Source: a virus (Duplodnaviria; Heunggongvirae; Uroviricota; Caudoviricetes). Taken from it: 13,767 nt of DNA. Location of the stretch: IMG/VR virus record IMGVR_UViG_2531839532_000006. One strand, written 5' to 3'. A program made the translations under genes and the position numbers. A model generated the notes under the pieces. That model was given only the letters and a program-made list of their open reading frames with translations. It was not told the DNA's origin and ran no database searches. This document shows, one piece after another, positions 253-13,767 of this stretch (position 1 is the first letter of the stretch; the number at the start of each line of letters is the position of its first letter).

Positions 253-1566
253 ATGATCAAAGAGACTGTTACGATGAGTCATAAGGAACTCCACCGACTT
301 CAGACTATTCAGGAACAAGCTGCGGCACGCATTGGCATTTCTATTCGGCAGGTTAAACGTCTGGTGCAACGGTATAGAAATGAAGGGCCTTCTGGTCTGG
401 TTTCCCACCGACGTGGAAAGCGTCCTAATAATTCCTTTTCTACTGAATTCAGAGCAACAGTAATTTCACTCCTCAAAGGCCGTTACGCTGATTTTGGACC
501 TACGTTTGCGTGCGAAAAATTGCGCGAGATACACGGTTTATCTTTATCCGTTGAAACTCTCAGAAAGTGGATGATAGAAGAGGGGTTATGGCGTGAACGC
601 CGTCGTAAAATTGCCCGTATATATCAACGCCGCATGCGACGACCATCTTACGGTGAACTGATCCAGATTGATGGCTCACCTCATGACTGGTTTGAAAATC
701 GAGGCCCCAGATGTACACTGATCGTTTTCATTGATGATGCCACCAGTGCGTTGATGGCGTTGCGTTTTGTGCCTGCTGAAACAACCCGGGCTTACATGGA
801 AACCCTCCGGGGTTACCTTAATGATCATGGCGTACCGCTCGCTCTCTACTCTGATAGACACAGTATATTCAGGGTAAATAACCCAGAGCGGGAAGGTGAG
901 CTGACCCAGTTCACTCGTGCGATAAAGACACTGGGCATCGAGCCAATCCATGCCAACAGCCCGCAGGCAAAAGGGCGGGTAGAGCGCGCCAATCAGACAC
1001 TACAGGACAGGCTGGTCAAAGAAATGCGGCTTCAGAATATCAGTGATATTGAAACAGCAAATGCATGGTTGCCGACCTTTATTGAAGCCTATAACAACCG
1101 GTTCGCTACGTCGCCTCGTACTACTGATAATGCTCATCTTGATGTGCACCATTCTGAAGAGGAACTGGGTTATATCTTCAGCCTACAGGCGAAGCGCGTT
1201 CTGTCTAAAAATCTCACTTTCCAGTACAAAAGCAGTGCGTTTCAGGTACGCAGTGAGGGCCGGGGATATCGACTTAGGCATTCGGTTGTTACTGTATGCG
1301 AGAACTTTGACGGTGAAATTAACGTTCTGTATGACGGGAAAGCGCTGGGCTGGGAAAAGTATGTTGATGGCCCGGAGCCTATACCACTGGATGATGAAAA
1401 GAGTGTCCATGAACGAGTGGATAATGCCCGTATTGATTTACGCTCAAAATACTATGTTAAACCTAAAGCTGACCATCCCTGGCTTACGCGCCGAACGCAA
1501 AGTCATCAGCAAGTTAAGCCCCCGAAGTTACCTAAAAAGAAGCCTGATCCCGATAAAAAAGATTGA
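253..1566 (+). CDS. DDE-type (rve integrase-core) IS transposase with N-terminal HTH; family not resolved (ISNCY / IS481-like)
   Basis: 437-aa ORF. N-terminus is HTH-like (RIGISIRQVKRLVQRY). Core has acidic residues spaced like a DDE triad (IQIDGSPHDW ... ALYSDRHSIF ... GRVERANQTLQ). ATG at 274 (MSHKEL) is an alternative start. Confidence 0.75.
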   Translation: MIKETVTMSHKELHRLQTIQEQAAARIGISIRQVKRLVQRYRNEGPSGLVSHRRGKRPNNSFSTEFRATVISLLKGRYADFGPTFACEKLREIHGLSLSVETLRKWMIEEGLWRERRRKIARIYQRRMRRPSYGELIQIDGSPHDWFENRGPRCTLIVFIDDATSALMALRFVPAETTRAYMETLRGYLNDHGVPLALYSDRHSIFRVNNPEREGELTQFTRAIKTLGIEPIHANSPQAKGRVERANQTLQDRLVKEMRLQNISDIETANAWLPTFIEAYNNRFATSPRTTDNAHLDVHHSEEELGYIFSLQAKRVLSKNLTFQYKSSAFQVRSEGRGYRLRHSVVTVCENFDGEINVLYDGKALGWEKYVDGPEPIPLDDEKSVHERVDNARIDLRSKYYVKPKADHPWLTRRTQSHQQVKPPKLPKKKPDPDKKD

Positions 1567-5121: not shown

Positions 5122-5496
5122 ATGCTCATAGATTTGGTTTTACCTTACCCGCCGACGGTGAACACTTACTGGCGACGCCGTGGCAGCACATATTTTGTAT
5201 CAAAAGCCGGGGAGCGTTATCGCCGGGCAGTGGCGCTTATTGTTCGCCAGCAGCGGCTGAAATTAAGCCTGTCCGGAAGGCTGGCGATAAAGGTGATTGC
5301 AGAGCCACCGGATAAGCGTCGTCGCGACCTGGACAATATCCTGAAAGCACCGCTGGATGCGCTGACGCATGCGGGAGTGTTAATGGACGATGAGCAGTTT
5401 GATGAAATCAATATCGTTCGTGGTCAGCCAGTATCTGGAGGACCTCTGGGGGTGAAGATTTACCCCATAATGCATGAAGAGCAGGTCAAAAAATGA
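5122..5496 (+). CDS. rusA: RusA-family Holliday-junction resolvase
   Basis: 124-aa ORF with LPYPPTVNTYWRRRG and RRRDLDNILKAPLDALTHAGVLMDDEQ motifs typical of RusA. SD AGAGGTG upstream; nin-region position immediately before Q. Confidence 0.85.
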   Translation: MLIDLVLPYPPTVNTYWRRRGSTYFVSKAGERYRRAVALIVRQQRLKLSLSGRLAIKVIAEPPDKRRRDLDNILKAPLDALTHAGVLMDDEQFDEINIVRGQPVSGGPLGVKIYPIMHEEQVKK

Positions 5497-6314
5497 AACT
5501 GGAAGATTTACCGAAATACTACTCCCCAAAATCCCCTTGCCTGACCGATGCATCGGCCTCAACGTCAAAAGATGCGCTGAGTATCACTGATGTGATGGCC
5601 GCGCAGGGCATGACACAGAATCGGGCTGAGATGGGGTTTTCTGCGTTCCTGGGGAAAATGGGCATCAGTATGAATGACAGGGCGCGGGCAACAGAATTAC
5701 TGGCAGATTATGCACTCAGTCGGTGCGATCGTGTGGCGGCGTTGAGAAAACTTCCGGCAGAAATAAAACCGGTAGTGATGCGCATTATGGCTACGTATGC
5801 GTTTGAAGATTATGCCCGCAGTGCAGCGAGTAAAAAGCAGTGTCCTTGTTGCCGTGGGGAAAAATTTATTGAAAGCATAGTTTTTACAAACAAGGTCCAG
5901 TATCCGGATGGTAAGCCGCCGGTATGGGCAAAGTGTACGAAAGGTGTGTATCCGTCTTACTGGGAAGAATGGAAAAAAGTCAGGGAGGTGGTAAAAGTTG
6001 CCTGTCCGGAGTGTGGCGGAAAGGGTGAGGTTTCCACCGCCTGTAAGGATTGCCGTGGGCGTGGTGTCGCCATTCATCGTGAAGAGTCGGTAAAACGTGG
6101 TATGCCTGTTATCAGAGACTGCCAGCGTTGTGATGGTCGTGGCTGTGAAAGACTACCATCAACGGAGGCATTTAATGCCATACGCAAAGTGACGAGTGCT
6201 ATCACGCTTGATACGTGGAAAAAATCAGTGAAACGCTTTTACGATACGTTGGTGGTTCGGTTTGACATTGAAGAGGCATGGGCGGAGCGGCAGTTAAAGA
6301 GGGTAACGCGATAG
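5493..6314 (+). CDS. Q: Late-gene antiterminator Q (zinc-ribbon-rich; Q82 / QuuQ-like)
   Basis: 273-aa ORF whose start overlaps the rusA stop (ATGA). Contains CPCCRG, CPECGGKG, CKDCRGRG and CQRCDGRG repeats. A promoter plus intrinsic terminator follow immediately downstream, as expected for Q. Confidence 0.7.
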   Translation: MKLEDLPKYYSPKSPCLTDASASTSKDALSITDVMAAQGMTQNRAEMGFSAFLGKMGISMNDRARATELLADYALSRCDRVAALRKLPAEIKPVVMRIMATYAFEDYARSAASKKQCPCCRGEKFIESIVFTNKVQYPDGKPPVWAKCTKGVYPSYWEEWKKVREVVKVACPECGGKGEVSTACKDCRGRGVAIHREESVKRGMPVIRDCQRCDGRGCERLPSTEAFNAIRKVTSAITLDTWKKSVKRFYDTLVVRFDIEEAWAERQLKRVTR

Positions 6315-7985: not shown

Positions 7986-8061
7986 GGCCCTTTAGCTCAG
8001 TGGTGAGAGCGAGCGACTCATAATCGCCAGGTCGCTGGTTCAAATCCAGCAAGGGCCACCA
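7986..8061 (+). tRNA. ileZ: tRNA with CAU anticodon, ileZ-like (tRNA-Ile2 after lysidine modification, or tRNA-Met)
   Basis: Hand-folded cloverleaf: acceptor GGCCCTT / AAGGGCC, D-arm GCTC...GAGC, anticodon loop CTCATAA, T-arm GCTGG-TTCAAAT-CCAGC, encoded CCA. One A-C mismatch at the top of the anticodon stem. Confidence 0.8.
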
Positions 8062-8161: not shown

Positions 8162-8235
8162 GCGTTGTTAGCTCAGCCGGACAGAGCAATTGCCTTCTAA
8201 GCAATCGGTCACTGGTTCGAATCCAGTACAGCGCG
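8162..8235 (+). tRNA. tRNA-Arg (anticodon UCU), argO-like; 3' CCA not encoded
   Basis: Hand-folded cloverleaf: acceptor GCGTTGT / ACAGCGC (one G-U pair), D-arm GCTC...GAGC, anticodon stem ATTGC / GCAAT with loop CTTCTAA, T-arm ACTGG-TTCGAAT-CCAGT. Discriminator G is followed by CTA. Confidence 0.8.
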
Positions 8236-8375
8236 CTATATTCATTCTTCCAGATTCCTTCCGGCAGAGCCTTATACTGAAATATACCTGGCTCAGGATA
8301 TTGTTGAAAATATTTTATGTTTGTCAAAAATAAAAGTTCTGTTAAGTATTGATTGAGTGTTTGTTATACGGTCTA

Positions 8376-8702: not shown

Positions 8703-9093
8703 ATACATATCTGGATTATCACTTGTTACGGTAAAAAGTGATTGCTTACTGTTTTTGTGAGTGGCATTGCAGCAGCCGGATAATGTCAGTGCTGGCTGAC
8801 GGTGTGCTGGTGGCGGGTGTGGTGGTTGTTGCTTTCCCGTTGCTGAAAAAGAAAACGCCAGACTGTTAGCCGGGTATCAGTTAGCGGGAGAAATTTTTAA
8901 ATACTTCACAATTCAGGCGGTTGACTGTTGTCTGGTTTGCGGGGAGTTTGTTAAAAGAAACTGGCATGGTGAATCCCCCTGTGCGGAGGGGCAATCAGCG
9001 AGTAGGTATATGGGATAATCGCGGATTCAGGTGCTGGTACTGAATTCACCGGGAGGCACCCGGCACCATGCAATGGCACATAGCGCCACTCTC

Positions 9094-9120
9094 CAGCCCC
9101 TCTCCGGAGGGGCTGTTTAT
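9094..9120 (+). terminator. Intrinsic terminator inside the cargo island
   Basis: CAGCCCCTC-TCCG-GAGGGGCTG hairpin followed by TTTATATTGATTTT. Confidence 0.5.
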
Positions 9121-9146
9121 ATTGATTTTGTCAGATGTGAGTAAAC

Positions 9147-10462: not shown

Positions 10463-10777
10463 ATGACTCAAAACTATGAACTGATTGTGAAAGGGATCCG
10501 CAATTTTGAGAATAAAGTTACGGTAACTTTAGCGTTACGGGACAAAAAACGCTTTGACGGTGAAATTTTTGACCTGGACATCTCGCTGGACCGTGTTGAA
10601 GGTGCCGCGCTGGAGTTTTATGAGGCAGCAGCCAGAAGGAGCATCAGACAGGTCTTCCTGGATGTTGCTGCCGGGTTATGTGAAGGGGACGAGCTGTTGC
10701 CAGAAACGCGCCCCTGTTCAGAGGCGCGGTATACCATAAAAATTAACAGTTCTGATAACTCGATTACGGGTTGTTAG
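10463..10777 (+). CDS. ydfR: YdfR-like hypothetical protein between holin and endolysin
   Basis: 104-aa ORF starting 5 nt after the holin stop. Position and length match ydfR of the Qin lysis cassette as I recall it. Confidence 0.5.
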   Translation: MTQNYELIVKGIRNFENKVTVTLALRDKKRFDGEIFDLDISLDRVEGAALEFYEAAARRSIRQVFLDVAAGLCEGDELLPETRPCSEARYTIKINSSDNSITGC

Positions 10778-10832: not shown

Positions 10833-11366
10833 ATGAGCGCAAAAATCAAATACGGCCTGTCAGCTGCTGTTCTGGCGCTGATTGCTGCAGGCGCGTCTGC
10901 TCCTCAGATACTTGACCAGTTTCTGGACGAAAAAGAGGGTAACCACACAACGGCATACCGCGATGGTTCCGGCAACTGGACCATCTGTCGGGGGGCCACG
11001 ATGGTGGATGGAAAACCCGTTTTTCCCGGTATGAAACTGTCGAAGGAAAAATGCGACCAGGTCAACGCCATTGAGCGTGATAAGGCGCTGGCATGGGTGG
11101 AGAAAAACATCAAAGTGCCATTGAGCGAACCCCAGAAAGCGGGGATCGCGTCATTCTGTCCGTACAACATTGGTCCCGGTAAGTGTTTCCCGTCGACGTT
11201 TTATAAACGAATTAATGCAGGTGATCACAGGGGAGCGTGTGAGGCGATTCGCTGGTGGATTAAGGACGGTGGCAGAGACTGCCGTATTCGTTCAAACAAT
11301 TGCTACGGTCAGGTATCCCGTCGTGACCAGGAGAGCGCGCTGGCGTGCTGGGGTATCGACAGATAA
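10833..11366 (+). CDS. R: SAR endolysin (T4-lysozyme-like muramidase with N-terminal signal-anchor-release domain)
   Basis: 177-aa ORF with a Gly/Ala-rich weakly hydrophobic N-terminus (YGLSAAVLALIAAGASAP) and an E-8aa-D-5aa-T catalytic spacing (DEKEGNHTTAYRDGSGNWT). Partner of the pinholin. Confidence 0.9.
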   Translation: MSAKIKYGLSAAVLALIAAGASAPQILDQFLDEKEGNHTTAYRDGSGNWTICRGATMVDGKPVFPGMKLSKEKCDQVNAIERDKALAWVEKNIKVPLSEPQKAGIASFCPYNIGPGKCFPSTFYKRINAGDHRGACEAIRWWIKDGGRDCRIRSNNCYGQVSRRDQESALACWGIDR

Positions 11367-11456
11367 GCAGAATATTTTGCTGAAAAATAAGGCATGGCCA
11401 CGCGGGCGGATAACATGAAATCCTGCGAAGTGGCGAAACGTAAGTGAATAAAAGTA

Positions 11457-11490
11457 AAAACCCCGTTTGTTGGCACCAAGCGGGGTTTTG
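11457..11490 (+). terminator. Intrinsic terminator-like hairpin between endolysin and spanin genes
   Basis: AAAACCCCG-(15-nt loop)-CGGGGTTTT followed by GTGTTT. Confidence 0.5.
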
Positions 11491-11525
11491 TGTTTCCTGA
11501 CTCCGGAAAAGTCAAAGGAGAAAGT

Positions 11526-11663
11526 GTGTTTGATTTTAGCAAACTGATTCGGGAGATTCGAGTGATGGCTGAAAAATTATCCACCTGGAAGTTCATTCTT
11601 ATCTGGCTGGTGTTTGTGATTATGGCCTCCGGTTATTTCATCGGTCAGATACGCTGGTGGTGA
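11526..11663 (+). CDS. Small single-pass membrane protein (45 aa), unannotated, translationally coupled to Rz
   Basis: Hand-translated: GTG at 11526 with RBS AAAGGAG 5 nt upstream (ATG 11565 is an alternative start). Product [45 protein letters not shown]. Stop TGA at 11661-11663 is 1 nt before the Rz ATG. Confidence 0.4.
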
Positions 11664-11664
11664 A

Positions 11665-12129
11665 ATGAACCGCGTACTGTGCGTGGTCATCATTGCCCTG
11701 CTGGTGGCCTGTGGTGCGCTTAGTCTGGGGCTGAATCATTACCGTGATAACGCCATTACCTACAAAGCCCAGCGCGACAAAAATGTCAGAGAACTGAAGC
11801 TGGCGAACGCGGCAATTACTGACATGCAGATGCGTCAGCGTGATGTTGCTGCGCTCGATGCAAAATACACGAAGGAGTTAGCTGATGCGAAAGCTGAAAA
11901 TGATGCTCTGCGTGATGATGTTGCCGCTGGTCGTCGTCGGTTGCACATCAAAGCAGTCTGTCAGTCAGTGCGTGAAGCCACCACCGCCTCCGGCGTGGAT
12001 AATGCAGCCTCCCCCCGACTGGCAGACACCGCTGAACGGGATTATTTCACCCTCAGAGCGCGACTGATAATAATGCAAAAACAACTTGAAGGGGCACAGC
12101 TATACATTCGAGAGCAATGCCTCAGATAA
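11665..12129 (+). CDS. Rz: Rz i-spanin (inner-membrane spanin subunit)
   Basis: 154-aa ORF with an N-terminal TM helix ([18 protein letters not shown]) and coiled-coil periplasmic domain. Follows the endolysin and contains an embedded +1-frame ORF. Confidence 0.85.
11885..12067 (+). CDS. Rz1: Rz1 o-spanin (outer-membrane lipoprotein) embedded in Rz in the +1 frame
   Basis: 60-aa ORF with lipobox LPLVVVGC and a proline-rich mature region ([18 protein letters not shown]), entirely inside Rz. Confidence 0.75.
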
Positions 12130-12436: not shown

Positions 12437-12715
12437 TTAGTGCGGAAATATTTGTGTAGTGTTCTGAATGTTCTCAGTAAAGAGTAATGAATTATCAAAG
12501 GTATAGTAATATCTTTTGTTTTCGTGGATATTTGTAATCCATCTGAAAACCCCTGCTGTAGCAAGATTTTTCCTGTATTCGTAAAATGATAACTCTCCTG
12601 ATTTGAATCCTTTTAAGGTGGCTTCTATAAGGCATTTATTTTTTGAAAATCTTACATTTACAACCTTACCCTGCTCTCCAATGACTAGTCTAAAAACTAG
12701 TATTAAGACTATCAC
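12437..12715 (-). CDS. Hypothetical protein in AT-rich DNA after the lysis cassette (bor-position moron)
   Basis: 92-aa ORF with a GTG start and no clear RBS. The start codon lies inside a 20-bp perfect palindrome; a stem-loop at 12400-12428 follows the stop. Confidence 0.3.
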
Positions 12716-12932: not shown

Positions 12933-13166
12933 TCAATCTGGTCTGACCTGTTTTCTGAGCAATTCAGTAATGTCACTCTTTTCTTTGTTTGCTTCAGAAG
13001 AAACTCTTTTTTCTGAGCACAGTCTCCGGCGGCAGGCTTCAATGACCCAGGCTGAGAAATTCCCGGACCCTTTTTGAACAAGAGCGATGTTAATTTGTTC
13101 AATCATTTGGTTAGGAAAGCGGATGTTGCGGGTTGTTGTTCTGCGGGTTCTGTTCTTCGTTGACAT
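12933..13166 (-). CDS. Small basic protein, possibly DUF3950-type / ribbon-helix-helix-like
   Basis: 77-aa ORF MSTKNRTRRTTTRNIRFPNQMIEQINIALVQKGSGNFSAWVIEACRRRL... with a basic N-terminus and a short beta-alpha-alpha-like core. Family recalled from memory. Confidence 0.45.
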   Translation of the reverse strand: MSTKNRTRRTTTRNIRFPNQMIEQINIALVQKGSGNFSAWVIEACRRRLCSEKRVSSEANKEKSDITELLRKQVRPD

Positions 13167-13509: not shown

Positions 13510-13767
13510 GTAAGCGACTCGTCAGAACCGTATTGATATTTACTGAGAGCTCAGATCAACTTTCCAGGGCAACAGATCGCGTACCCGGTTTGCCGGCCAG
13601 TCCTGGATATGTTCAATGACGTAACGCAGCCACTTTTCTGGCTCCACATTGTTCAGACGGCATGTGCCGATCAGCGAGTACAACACCGCCGCATGTTCAC
13701 CACCGCTGTCGGAACCCGCGAACATCCAGTTTTTCCGGCCTACGGCCACTCCCCGTAAGGCGTTCTC
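13510..13767 (-). mobile_element. IS66-family insertion sequence, terminal part (GTAAGCG terminus), extending beyond the window
   Basis: Similarity to lambda cos ends at 13509. 13510 begins GTAAGCGACTCG, the terminal motif typical of IS66-family ends, and an IS66-type transposase C-terminus is encoded about 30 bp inside. Confidence 0.7.
13540..13767 (-). CDS. IS66-family transposase (TnpC), C-terminal portion; 5' part lies beyond the window
   Basis: Minus-strand frame is open to the window edge and reads ENALRGVAVGRKNWMFAGSDSGGEHAAVLYSLIGTCRLNNVEPEKWLRYVIEHIQDWPANRVRDLLPWKVDLSSQ, the conserved IS66 TnpC C-terminus. Confidence 0.75.
   Translation of the reverse strand, partial: ENALRGVAVGRKNWMFAGSDSGGEHAAVLYSLIGTCRLNNVEPEKWLRYVIEHIQDWPANRVRDLLPWKVDLSSQ

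What the first reader, a model, noticed from the sequence alone, without database searches (positions are those of the whole stretch)
11457..11667. Unannotated 45-aa membrane protein inserted between SAR endolysin and Rz
A terminator-like hairpin (11457-11490) is followed by a good RBS (AAAGGAG) and a GTG-initiated ORF encoding [45 protein letters not shown], with one predicted TM helix. Its stop is 1 nt before the Rz ATG, implying translational coupling. Canonical lambda and phage-21 cassettes run S-R-Rz/Rz1 without such a gene. A small membrane protein here could be a lysis regulator such as an antiholin-like or spanin-modulating factor, or an unrelated moron.
Basis: seen in the sequence. 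Interest (0 to 1): 0.6.

Follow-up and report, generated by a model that had tools for sequence, protein, structure and literature searches.

The report
Portable small membrane-peptide gene cassette
The 45-codon reading frame between the cell-wall enzyme and spanin genes of this prophage is a real, conserved gene for a tiny membrane-anchored protein. It travels with its own hairpin leader through many unrelated phage operons, so it looks like a mobile, tightly silenced accessory gene rather than a fixed part of the lysis machinery.

Summary
A GC-rich hairpin (11457-11489) is followed by GGAG (11517-11520), a GTG at 11526 and a 45-codon ORF. Its TGA ends 1 nt before the Rz ATG (11665).

- **Real gene.** The frame is the only one open in all 11 compared copies. 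Pairwise dN/dS is 0.08-0.39. The protein is PHROG 6632 (unknown function), annotated "hypothetical" in some RefSeq genomes. It is predicted as helix-kink-helix: a cytoplasmic amphipathic helix plus a C-terminal membrane helix ending in RWW.
- **Portable unit.** The unit is a two-way terminator-like hairpin, a stem that hides the ribosome site, and the ORF. It sits before the inner-membrane spanin gene in at least six unrelated lysis cassettes. It also occurs in baseplate and head operons and in toxin-antitoxin-rich cargo islands.
- **Shared leader.** The same leader precedes other small "...RWW" membrane-peptide families.
- **No partner specificity.** The cassette does not track any holin, endolysin or spanin type, so a dedicated antiholin or spanin-modulator role is not supported.
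- **Extra constraint.** Synonymous sites in codons 3-12 are frozen. The minus strand there reads an extended -10 (TGCTAAAAT) facing the hairpin. This predicts a roughly 80-nt antisense RNA, as in type I toxin-antitoxin loci. That RNA is inferred, not shown.

Function remains untested.

The parts
11447..11456 (.). A-rich tract just 5' of the hairpin. It reads as a U-tract on the minus strand.
   Evidence: An equivalent A-rich tract (AAAGC[A/G]AAA in the close copies) precedes the stem in 18 of 19 copies, including distant ones. It gives 3-7 U in the 8 nt after the stem on the minus strand.
11457..11489 (.). GC-rich hairpin that looks like an intrinsic terminator in both directions. It is the first element of the conserved leader.
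   Evidence: The terminator scan found it. It folds at -17.8 kcal/mol. On 14 sequences 93.5% of cells are paired, with 15 double-sided compensatory changes, a level reached by 0 of 500 shuffles. It is co-inherited with the ORF in every genomic context.
11493..11521 (+). Second stem of the leader. It pairs the Shine-Dalgarno region (AGGAGA) with an upstream UUUCCU.
   Evidence: Fold results are. Other copies use CCUUG/CAAGG, CCUAU/AUAGG (L114), CCUUCUG/CAGAAGG (L118) or UUUCC/GGAAA (L122) for the same occlusion.
11517..11520 (+). Shine-Dalgarno GGAG, 5 nt before the GTG start.
   Evidence: Read directly from the sequence. GGAG is invariant in alignment A3.
11526..11663 (+). 45-codon ORF (GTG start, TGA stop) for a tail-anchored inner-membrane peptide, PHROG 6632.
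   Evidence: dN/dS is 0.08-0.39 and this is the only frame without stops. There are 49 clusters at 50% identity, all 31-86 aa. AlphaFold2 predicts helix 4-17, a break at 18-19 and helix 20-44, with pLDDT 82.6.
11533..11541 (-). Predicted extended -10 promoter element (TGCTAAAAT on the minus strand) inside codons 3-6. This is inferred only.
   Evidence: TGnTAnnnT sits at the same place in 17 of 19 copies, including distant members. Synonymous sites are frozen there. The chance of the motif given the protein alone is 0.02-0.19 per lineage.
11447..11527 (-). Predicted ~80-nt cis-antisense RNA. It would cover the start codon, SD and leader, and end at the hairpin. It is inferred and not detected.
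   Evidence: The geometry follows from the -10 element and the two-way terminator. No Rfam family matches; the best hit is a sub-threshold rimP-leader match on the minus strand at 11447-11522, 24.7 bits against a cutoff of 47.
11551..11567 (+). Possible internal start. GGGAG (11551-11555) lies 9 nt before the ATG of Met14 (11565), which is invariant in alignment A4 and kept in most distant relatives. Use of this start would give a 32-aa product.
   Evidence: Codons 9-10 read (C/A)GG GAG in 13 of 16 copies and Met14 is invariant. 32-aa forms have been called by some annotators. Nothing tests whether it is used.
11661..11667 (+). The junction TGA-A-ATG between the small ORF and Rz.
   Evidence: Read. 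The same 1-nt junction occurs before Rz, DUF2514, DUF2570 and a methylase gene in other loci.

Best explanation
This is a self-contained, portable accessory cassette. It is not a core component of the S21/R21/Rz lysis system.

**Anatomy.** The cassette has three parts:
1. A GC-rich hairpin flanked by an A-tract and a T-tract, terminator-like on both strands.
2. A short stem that occludes the Shine-Dalgarno sequence.
3. A GTG-initiated 45-codon gene.

**Product.** The protein is a tail-anchored inner-membrane peptide. It has a roughly 20-residue amphipathic, heptad-patterned cytoplasmic helix, a Pro/Ser-Asn/Thr kink, and one transmembrane helix ending in RWW at the periplasmic face.

**Shown.** The gene is under purifying selection. 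Leader and gene are inherited together in lysis, baseplate, head and cargo-island contexts. Both leader stems covary.

**Inferred expression.** In this prophage the gene has no promoter of its own. It would therefore be made only when Q-modified late transcription reads through the hairpin. Its translation would be kept low by the GTG start and the hidden ribosome site.

**Inferred antisense RNA.** An approximately 80-nt antisense RNA probably adds a further brake. It would start from an extended -10 inside codons 3-6 and end at the same hairpin. This is the layout of type I toxin-antitoxin loci such as symE/SymR.

**Inferred function.** Such multi-layer silencing, the peptide's architecture and its neighbours suggest a membrane-active, potentially toxic peptide. 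Made late in infection, it would perturb or depolarise the inner membrane, or bind a host membrane protein. That would sharpen or advance lysis generally rather than through one specific holin, endolysin or spanin.
For: **Real gene**
- Searches show purifying selection and a conserved small-protein family.

**Portable unit with exact boundaries at hairpin and downstream ATG**
-.

**Contexts**
- Six or more unrelated lysis cassettes.
- Baseplate operons.
- A head operon.
- Islands with HicAB, ParE, RelB/YafQ or PrlF/YhaV.

**Leader**
- Leader covariation is shown. Distant copies keep both stems with different sequences.
- A covariance model of the leader finds it in front of other small tail-anchored peptides, several ending in (I/V)(R/K)WW.

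**Promoter and antisense signals**
- No plus-strand sigma-70-like site lies within 100 nt upstream.
- Synonymous divergence is 0.28 in codons 2-12 against 0.80 in codons 23-43. None of 20000 random codon sets was as low as the N-terminal half (codons 2-22, pS 0.42).
- The minus-strand TGnTAnnnT is conserved in position.

**Topology**
- Five basic residues lie N-terminal of the TM against one at the C-terminal side, and the model is helix-kink-helix.

**Published type I toxin features**
- Under 60-70 aa, one TM, an aromatic or charged C-terminus, and an RBS buried in a stem (PMC2887945, PMC4147584).
Against: - No expression, toxicity or phenotype data exist for any family member.
- The antisense promoter is a motif only. 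Its -35 is poor (TCGAAT/TCGCAA).
- The frozen synonymous sites could instead reflect an internal start signal (GGGAG-N9-ATG14), constraints on translation initiation, or recent gene conversion of the 5' half.
- Some other leader-bearing cassettes lack the minus-strand motif.
- Wobble pairs favour folding of the sense RNA: 11 G.U on plus against 4 on minus.
- The repeated landing exactly in front of i-spanin genes is not explained by a context-free cargo model.
- Classical type I loci carry their own toxin promoter. None is seen here.
Confidence: 0.5

Rival explanations
1. Dedicated lysis accessory factor. The peptide would act with the lysis proteins as an antiholin-like timer, a spanin modulator, or a releasin/Lcc6-like helper. 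It would be translationally coupled to Rz.
For: - It lies after the endolysin gene (directly, or with one further ORF between) and immediately before the i-spanin gene in at least six non-homologous cassettes. The junction is usually TGA-N-ATG.
- In R21-type cassettes the same slot holds other small TM ORFs: GER2, PhiR5_2, and 933W-type ECs_5741.
- There are precedents for extra small membrane lysis factors: Mu gp25 releasin (PMC9239132) and LambdaSo Lcc6 (bioRxiv 10.1101/2024.01.23.576932).
- A possible dual start (GTG1/ATG14) recalls holin/antiholin pairs.
Against: - It shows no specificity for any holin, endolysin (SAR or soluble) or spanin family.
- The same cassette lies in baseplate and head operons and in cargo islands, with no lysis gene adjacent.
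- It matches no holin, antiholin, DUF2730 or spanin family.
- Its topology is the inverse of releasin and Lcc6.
Confidence: 0.25
2. Lysogen-expressed moron. The peptide would be made from the prophage and benefit the host or prophage, for example by superinfection exclusion at the inner membrane or anti-defence.
For: - It is an extra gene between genes that are adjacent in related phages.
- It is a membrane protein.
- It is found in cargo hot spots next to toxin-antitoxin genes.
- HK97 gp15 is a precedent for a small membrane exclusion moron (own knowledge).
Against: - No conserved plus-strand promoter exists. The conserved unit begins with a terminator.
- The ribosome site is occluded and the start is GTG, which argues for silencing rather than constitutive expression.
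- It matches nothing in PADLOC.
Confidence: 0.15
3. The peptide itself is irrelevant. The ORF would be only an upstream leader frame or RNA element that sets Rz translation by termination-reinitiation, or a chance ORF.
For: - The 1-nt stop-start junction is present.
- The 3' end TGGTGGTGA resembles a Shine-Dalgarno sequence for the next gene, and it recurs at the end of unrelated small ORFs.
Against: - The amino-acid sequence is conserved down to roughly 35-50% identity, with conservative replacements and dN/dS well below 1.
- The ORF is kept where the next gene is 3-25 nt away, hundreds of nt away, or on the other strand.
- Length is fixed at 44-50 codons.
Confidence: 0.05

Closest known systems
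Type I toxin-antitoxin loci (symE/SymR layout; Ldr/Fst-type toxins)
   Same: - The protein is small (45 aa), hydrophobic and single-TM, with an aromatic and basic C-terminus.
- The ribosome site is buried in a stem.
- A candidate antisense promoter lies inside the first codons, facing a terminator just upstream. The RNA would cover the SD and start codon, as SymR does (PMC4147584; PMC2887945).
- Cassettes occur in tandem or neighbouring arrays (L008, L115, L118).
   Different: - No antisense RNA or toxicity has been shown.
- No own toxin promoter exists, and the sense strand must read through a terminator.
- The cassette is embedded in phage late operons.
- It has no sequence similarity to known toxin families.
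Morons of lambdoid phages (Juhala et al. 2000, as cited in PMC4104026)
   Same: It is an extra gene unit inserted between genes that are contiguous in relatives. Its boundaries are sharp. It is spread by mosaic recombination.
   Different: Classical morons carry a promoter upstream and a terminator downstream, and are expressed from the prophage. Here the terminator is upstream and no promoter is found.
Phage Mu releasin gp25 (DUF2730) and Shewanella LambdaSo Lcc6
   Same: Both are small membrane-tethered proteins with almost no periplasmic part. Both are non-canonical extra lysis factors.
   Different: - They have an N-terminal TM and a cytoplasmic C-domain, the inverse topology.
- They are 99 and 65 aa long.
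- There is no homology.
- This cassette is not linked to SAR endolysins and is not confined to lysis loci.
P22 ant/sar antisense control and the lambda S sdi/dual-start motif (own knowledge, not tested here)
   Same: In P22, a short antisense RNA from a promoter at the start of a phage gene covers its ribosome site. In lambda S, an upstream stem and two start codons tune a small membrane lysis protein.
   Different: There is no sequence relation. Neither the antisense RNA nor use of the second start (ATG14) is demonstrated here.
PeSL-type mobile regulatory cassettes of T4-type phages (own knowledge)
   Same: A conserved stem-loop leader is shared by many unrelated small ORFs. It appears to mark cassette boundaries for shuffling.
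   Different: PeSLs combine an early promoter with the stem-loop. This leader has no promoter and adds an SD-occluding stem. It is found in temperate phages, mostly of Enterobacterales.

Membership tests
PHROG 6632 (phage protein family, unknown function) | Full-length match to the family profile | tested here: met
   E = 1.2e-29, residues 1-45 aligned to profile positions 1-45 of 45.
Type I toxin-antitoxin system | Toxin under about 60-70 aa with a predicted transmembrane helix and an aromatic or charged C-terminal cluster | tested here: met
   45 aa; TM at about residues 23-42 (Kyte-Doolittle 2.13); C-terminus QIRWW. Criteria are from PMC2887945.
Type I toxin-antitoxin system | Toxin ribosome-binding site sequestered in secondary structure | tested here: met
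   The SD is paired in the MFE folds of nearly all copies examined (not L110 or Providencia L022). The stem is kept by different sequences in different copies.
Type I toxin-antitoxin system | Antisense small RNA antitoxin complementary to the toxin mRNA | tested here: inconclusive
   Support is indirect only. A position-conserved minus-strand TGnTAnnnT, frozen synonymous sites and a two-way terminator predict a ~80-nt RNA. There are no transcript data and no Rfam family.
Type I toxin-antitoxin system | Own promoter for the toxin mRNA | tested here: not met
   No sigma-70-like plus-strand site within 100 nt upstream in any close copy. Conservation begins at the hairpin.
Type I toxin-antitoxin system | Toxicity on overproduction, relieved by the RNA | not testable with these tools
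   This needs an experiment.
Moron (lambdoid accessory gene unit) | Extra gene between genes adjacent in related phages | tested here: met
   The R21-type lysozyme and Rz flank different cargo in relatives. Lambda R and Rz abut directly (own knowledge).
Moron (lambdoid accessory gene unit) | Own promoter upstream and terminator downstream, allowing prophage expression | tested here: not met
   The terminator is upstream. No promoter was found. The next gene starts 1 nt after the stop.
Holin / antiholin | Match to a holin family, or a constant pairing with one holin type | tested here: not met
   No holin hit in Pfam or PHROGs. Neighbours include PF04971, PF16080, PF16931+PF05449 and PF05106 holins.
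Holin / antiholin | Dual-start motif giving two products | tested here: inconclusive
   A GTG1 and an ATG14 that is invariant in the A4 set and kept in most distant relatives are present, with GGGAG 9 nt upstream of ATG14. Use of the second start is unknown.
Releasin (Mu gp25, DUF2730) | DUF2730 domain, N-terminal TM with cytoplasmic C-domain, and partnership with a SAR endolysin | tested here: not met
   No Pfam hit. The topology is inverse. Upstream endolysins are SAR in some loci and soluble in others.
Spanin (Rz/Rz1 or u-spanin) | Periplasmic domain able to bridge the envelope, or an outer-membrane lipoprotein box | tested here: not met
   Only about 3 residues follow the TM. There is no lipobox. 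The genuine Rz/Rz1 follow at 11665-12129 and 11885-12067.

The most novel reading that the evidence does not exclude
The cassette may represent an undescribed, widespread class of phage-borne modules resembling type I toxin-antitoxin loci.

- One shared leader (two-way terminator plus SD clamp) would serve several families of tail-anchored '...RWW' membrane peptides.
- In at least some of these families, a cis-antisense RNA would keep the peptide silent in the lysogen. That RNA would start inside the first codons and end at the leader hairpin.
- The peptide would be unleashed only by antiterminated late transcription.
- It would then act as a generic membrane depolariser or lysis trigger, or as an addiction toxin.
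- The leader and the ...TGGTGGTGA end would double as recombination boundaries that shuffle the cassettes among phage operons.
Probability: 0.25. Interest if true: 0.75.

Novelty: new variant of a known kind. Interest (0 to 1): 0.55.

Why it matters
**Prevalence.** The cassette is common. The full region is in about 16% of complete E. coli genomes, with up to 7 matching places (full or partial) per genome. It also sits in the lysis region of medically relevant Stx1, Stx2a and Stx2c phages and H-19B. Toxin release from those phages depends on lysis timing.

**A gap in the standard model.** No member of the family has been studied, and most phage records do not annotate it. If the peptide alters membrane integrity or lysis timing, it is a missing player in the textbook holin-endolysin-spanin scheme. 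Releasin and Lcc6 were recent examples of such missing players.

**Regulation and evolution.** If the antisense RNA exists, the cassette would add a new type I toxin-like family whose sense expression is gated by antitermination. The shared leader in front of several peptide families would also point to a cassette-shuffling mechanism in temperate phages.

**Testability.** All of this can be tested with simple genetics in E. coli.

Tried and rejected
**Homology to anything characterised.** Pfam, NCBIfam, PADLOC and PDB sequences gave nothing. An exhaustive profile search of 1.84 billion proteins found only 49 clusters of equally small proteins.

**Rfam.** No family covers the leader or the antisense strand.

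**Link to SAR endolysins (releasin-like idea).** Rejected, because upstream endolysins include clearly soluble GH19, M15_4 and 137-aa types.

**The minus-strand 95-aa ORF 11309-11596, annotated in CP-1639.** Rejected as the conserved element. Sequence upstream of the hairpin is not conserved in other contexts, and minus frames carry stops or show high pN/pS.

**A sigma-70 promoter in the 36-nt spacer or upstream.** None was found.

**The CTGACC-18-CATAAT minus-strand site at 11648-11619.** It is not conserved in other copies.

**Literature.** Searches by accession and by peptide string returned no paper.

**Published Hfq-bound sRNAs in EHEC Sakai.** Not applicable. Sakai Sp15 carries ant plus another small ORF instead of this cassette.

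**Strand assignment of the hairpin by wobble pairs.** This only mildly favours the sense RNA and is not decisive.

**First locus search with the single 45-aa protein.** It failed for length. An alignment was used instead.
Full report
**1. Observation**

The region reads as described.
- A 13-bp GC-rich stem with a 7-nt loop lies at 11457-11489. An A-tract precedes it and a T-rich tract follows it.
- GGAG lies at 11517-11520, and GTG at 11526.
- The 45 codons encode [45 protein letters not shown].
- TGA lies at 11661-11663, followed by one A and then the Rz ATG at 11665.

The window is the late region of a lambdoid prophage. It contains, in order:
- a Q antiterminator (5493-6314)
- a DNA methylase
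- tRNA-Met and tRNA-Arg
- the sRNA STnc100
- an S21-type holin
- a DUF1327 gene
- a SAR lysozyme
- the small ORF
- Rz and Rz1

The ORF is not wholly unannotated. It is WP_000459345.1 'hypothetical protein' in some RefSeq genomes and CAH23245.1 in phage CP-1639. It matches PHROG 6632 (unknown function) over its full length. H-19B and most Stx-phage records omit it. The 301-nt region is complete in 871 of 5426 complete E. coli genomes.

**2. It is a real protein-coding gene**

Homologues occur in Escherichia, Shigella, Salmonella, Citrobacter, Enterobacter, Klebsiella, Yersinia, Brenneria, Symbiopectobacterium and Providencia. More distant copies come from uncharacterised metagenome contigs or genomes of unrecorded taxonomy. 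Nearly all are 44-50 aa.

Eleven diverse DNA copies were compared.
- The annotated frame is the only one open in all of them.
- Pairwise dN/dS is 0.08-0.39.
- Aggregated pN/pS is 0.33, against 0.53-1.83 in the other five frames.

An exhaustive profile search found only 49 clusters at 50% identity, all of them small proteins. Nothing matched in Pfam, NCBIfam, PADLOC or the PDB.

The conserved core is SKLIRELRxMxEKLPxW(K/R)F, followed by a hydrophobic helix and usually (R/K)WW at the end.
- Five basic residues precede the helix and one follows it, so the topology is N-in with a periplasmic tail of about 3 residues.
- AlphaFold2 predicts helix 4-17, a break at 18-19 and helix 20-44, with mean pLDDT 82.6.
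- The hydrophobic positions F4, L7, I11, M14 and L18 of the first helix follow a 3-4 spacing. This suggests an amphipathic or coiled-coil-like cytoplasmic segment. That reading comes from the sequence alone.

**3. The unit that is conserved is larger than the ORF**

Alignments of copies from different contexts show that homology begins at the A-tract and hairpin and ends at the start codon of the next gene. The flanks are unrelated.

The leader has two stems.
- The first is the terminator-like hairpin. On 14 sequences, 93.5% of cells in the two stems together are paired, with 15 double-sided compensatory changes. None of 500 shuffles reached that level, and slid controls fell to 35-66% paired.
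- The second pairs the Shine-Dalgarno region with an upstream pyrimidine run. Different copies achieve this with different sequences: UUUCCU/AGGAGA plus GACU/AGUC in the window, CCUUG/CAAGG in most, CCUAU/AUAGG in L114, CCUUCUG/CAGAAGG in L118, and UUUCC/GGAAA in L122.

Fifteen of 16 close copies start with GTG.

**4. Genomic contexts**

*Before an i-spanin gene in unrelated lysis cassettes:*
- S21 holin, DUF1327, PF00959 SAR lysozyme and Rz (the window).
- PF16080 holin, lysozyme and Rz in Salmonella.
- PF16931 holin, GH19 and a DUF2514 spanin in E. fergusonii.
- PF16931 plus PF05449 holins, Peptidase_M15_4, a 93-aa ORF, then Rz or DUF2570/LysC.
- GH19 followed by an unclassified spanin pair in Enterobacter.
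- PF05106 holin and a 137-138-aa enzyme, then Rz directly, or a methylase and then Rz.

The upstream endolysins include both SAR and clearly soluble types.

*Outside lysis cassettes:*
- Between a baseplate spike and a gp25-like sheath initiator: Rac-SA53, SEN34, E. coli loci L111-113, Yersinia and Dryocola.
- In a head operon, between a DUF2513 gene and the scaffold gene.
- After a 964-aa LPD38 protein.
- In cargo islands next to HicAB, ParE, RelB/YafQ or PrlF/YhaV.

In every case the leader comes with the gene.

**5. The leader is shared by other small peptides**

A covariance model of the leader also hits in front of other small ORFs.
- Two ORFs in L118, of 58 and 51 aa, both ending in AIRWW.
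- A 50-aa ORF ending in VKWW, upstream of the family copy in E. fergusonii.
- A 36-aa ORF ending in VIRWW in Dryocola.
- A 58-aa ORF in L115.
- The GER2 (50 aa...AIRWW) and PhiR5_2 (60 aa) ORFs, which occupy the R-Rz slot of other R21-type cassettes.

All have a hydrophilic N-terminus and a C-terminal TM helix. 933W-type Stx2 phages and Sakai Sp15 instead carry ant plus a 48-aa TM ORF (ECs_5741) just before Rz. Small tail-anchored peptides are therefore a recurrent cargo at this and other late-operon junctions.

**6. An extra nucleotide-level constraint and a candidate antisense RNA**

Synonymous variation is strongly uneven along the ORF.
- pS is 0.28 for codons 2-12 and 0.80 for codons 23-43.
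- None of 20000 random sets of 21 codons was as low as the N-terminal half, codons 2-22 (pS 0.42).
- Asp3 is GAT in 15 of 15 copies.
- Phe4 is TTT in 12 of 12, and Ile4 is ATT in 4 of 4.
- Ser5 is AGC in 16 of 16.
- Lys6 is AAA in 15 of 16.
- Arg12 is the rare codon CGA in 16 of 16.

On the minus strand, codons 3-6 read TTTGCTAAAATC. This is an extended -10 element of the form TGnTAnnnT.
- The motif is at the same position in 17 of 19 copies, including distant ones: TGCTAAGAT, TGCTAGAAT and TGCTAATGT.
- Given only the protein sequence, its probability is 0.02-0.19 per lineage.

A transcript from this element would start near the start codon and run across the SD and the leader. It would end at the hairpin, whose upstream A-tract supplies a U-tract on the minus strand in all copies. 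The predicted RNA is about 80 nt long, at window positions 11527 to 11447 on the minus strand.

This layout matches symE/SymR and resembles other type I toxin-antitoxin loci, where the toxin's ribosome site is commonly buried in structure (PMC4147584; PMC2887945). It would also explain why a terminator is inherited upstream of the gene.

*Caveats:*
- The -35 is poor.
- Several other leader-bearing cassettes lack the motif.
- Wobble pairs slightly favour the sense RNA.
- Part of the constraint could instead serve an internal start. GGGAG lies 9 nt before ATG14, which is invariant in the A4 alignment and kept in most distant relatives.
- No transcript data are available.

**7. Interpretation**

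*Established:* the ORF is a conserved, portable gene cassette. It encodes a tail-anchored inner-membrane peptide and carries a structured leader.

*Inferred:*
- In this prophage the gene lacks a promoter. It would then be expressed only by Q-antiterminated late transcription through the hairpin.
- Its translation would be damped by the GTG start and SD occlusion, and possibly by an antisense RNA.
- Such gating, the peptide's type I-toxin-like features and its company with toxin-antitoxin genes point to a membrane-active, potentially harmful peptide. I consider a general late-phase membrane effect that favours lysis the most likely role.

A dedicated partnership with a particular holin, endolysin or spanin does not fit the contexts. 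The striking recurrence directly in front of i-spanin genes nevertheless keeps a lysis-accessory role alive as the main rival. Mu releasin and LambdaSo Lcc6 show that extra small membrane lysis factors exist. They differ from this peptide in topology, size and family.

**8. Novelty**

No paper mentions the protein by accession or sequence. The family is catalogued only as a hypothetical protein. Several features have no description that I could find:
- the cassette architecture of upstream two-way terminator, SD clamp and tail-anchored '...RWW' peptide
- its reuse by several peptide families
- the candidate antisense promoter

It is best filed as a new variant of known kinds (moron / type I toxin-like small membrane protein). 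It is not a categorically new system, and it is not a proven member of either class.

Noticed in passing
window 10463-10777 (+): A DUF1327/YdfR-family gene (104 aa, PF07041, function unknown) sits between the S21-type holin and the SAR lysozyme. It is a second uncharacterised gene inside the lysis cassette.
   Followed up: partly
window 8935-9124 (+); 7986-8061 and 8162-8236 (+): A full-length match to the sRNA family STnc100 (132 bits). tRNA-Met(CAT) and tRNA-Arg(TCT) also lie between the Q antiterminator/methylase and the lysis genes.
   Followed up: no
window 11309-11596 (-): A 95-aa minus-strand ORF overlaps the leader and the ORF start. It is annotated as a hypothetical protein in CP-1639 (EC_CP1639_38). 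It is probably spurious, because the sequence upstream of the hairpin is not conserved in other contexts.
   Followed up: partly
window 11551-11567 (+): Met14 is invariant in the A4 alignment (kept in most distant relatives), with a conserved GGGAG 9 nt upstream. A second, internal start giving a 32-aa product is possible, which would be a dual-start motif like those of holins.
   Followed up: partly
L013 2608-2760 (phage GER2); L012 2583-2765 and 2780-2911 (PhiR5_2): Other R21-type cassettes keep the same hairpin and SD leader but carry different small TM ORFs before Rz. The GER2 ORF also ends in IRWW-TGA-A-ATG.
   Followed up: partly
L116 1440-1586 (Stx2a_WGPS2); L117 14749-14895 (Sakai ECs_5741): 933W-type Stx2 phages and Sakai Sp15 have ant followed by a 48-aa hydrophobic ORF (MGWLMISDKLITLVKSLCVLVGISF...) 7 nt before Rz. 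This is a third small-TM family at the same slot.
   Followed up: no
L118 4120-4379 and 5646-5884; L115 3710-3956; L008 3675-3907: Cassettes sharing the leader occur in tandem or neighbouring arrays, each with a different tail-anchored peptide. In L118 they are interleaved with ParE and RelB/YafQ type II toxin-antitoxin genes.
   Followed up: partly
L104 1477-2617: In one E. coli prophage, LT-II-type enterotoxin A and B genes (PF01375, PF06453) are inserted inside the lysis cassette. They lie between a GH108 endolysin and a Peptidase_M15_4 gene, just upstream of the small-ORF cassette.
   Followed up: no
window 253-1566 (+) and 13540-13749 (-): A transposase-like ORF (HTH and rve_3 domains at 253-1566) and a 69-aa minus-strand ORF at 13540-13749 (not searched against any family library) lie at the two ends of the window. 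The prophage region may be interrupted or bounded by insertion sequences.
   Followed up: no
window 12437-12715 (-) and 12933-13166 (-): DUF1398 and DUF3950 (YlcI/YnfO-like) genes lie on the opposite strand downstream of Rz. This is the usual moron position between the lysis and terminase genes.
   Followed up: no
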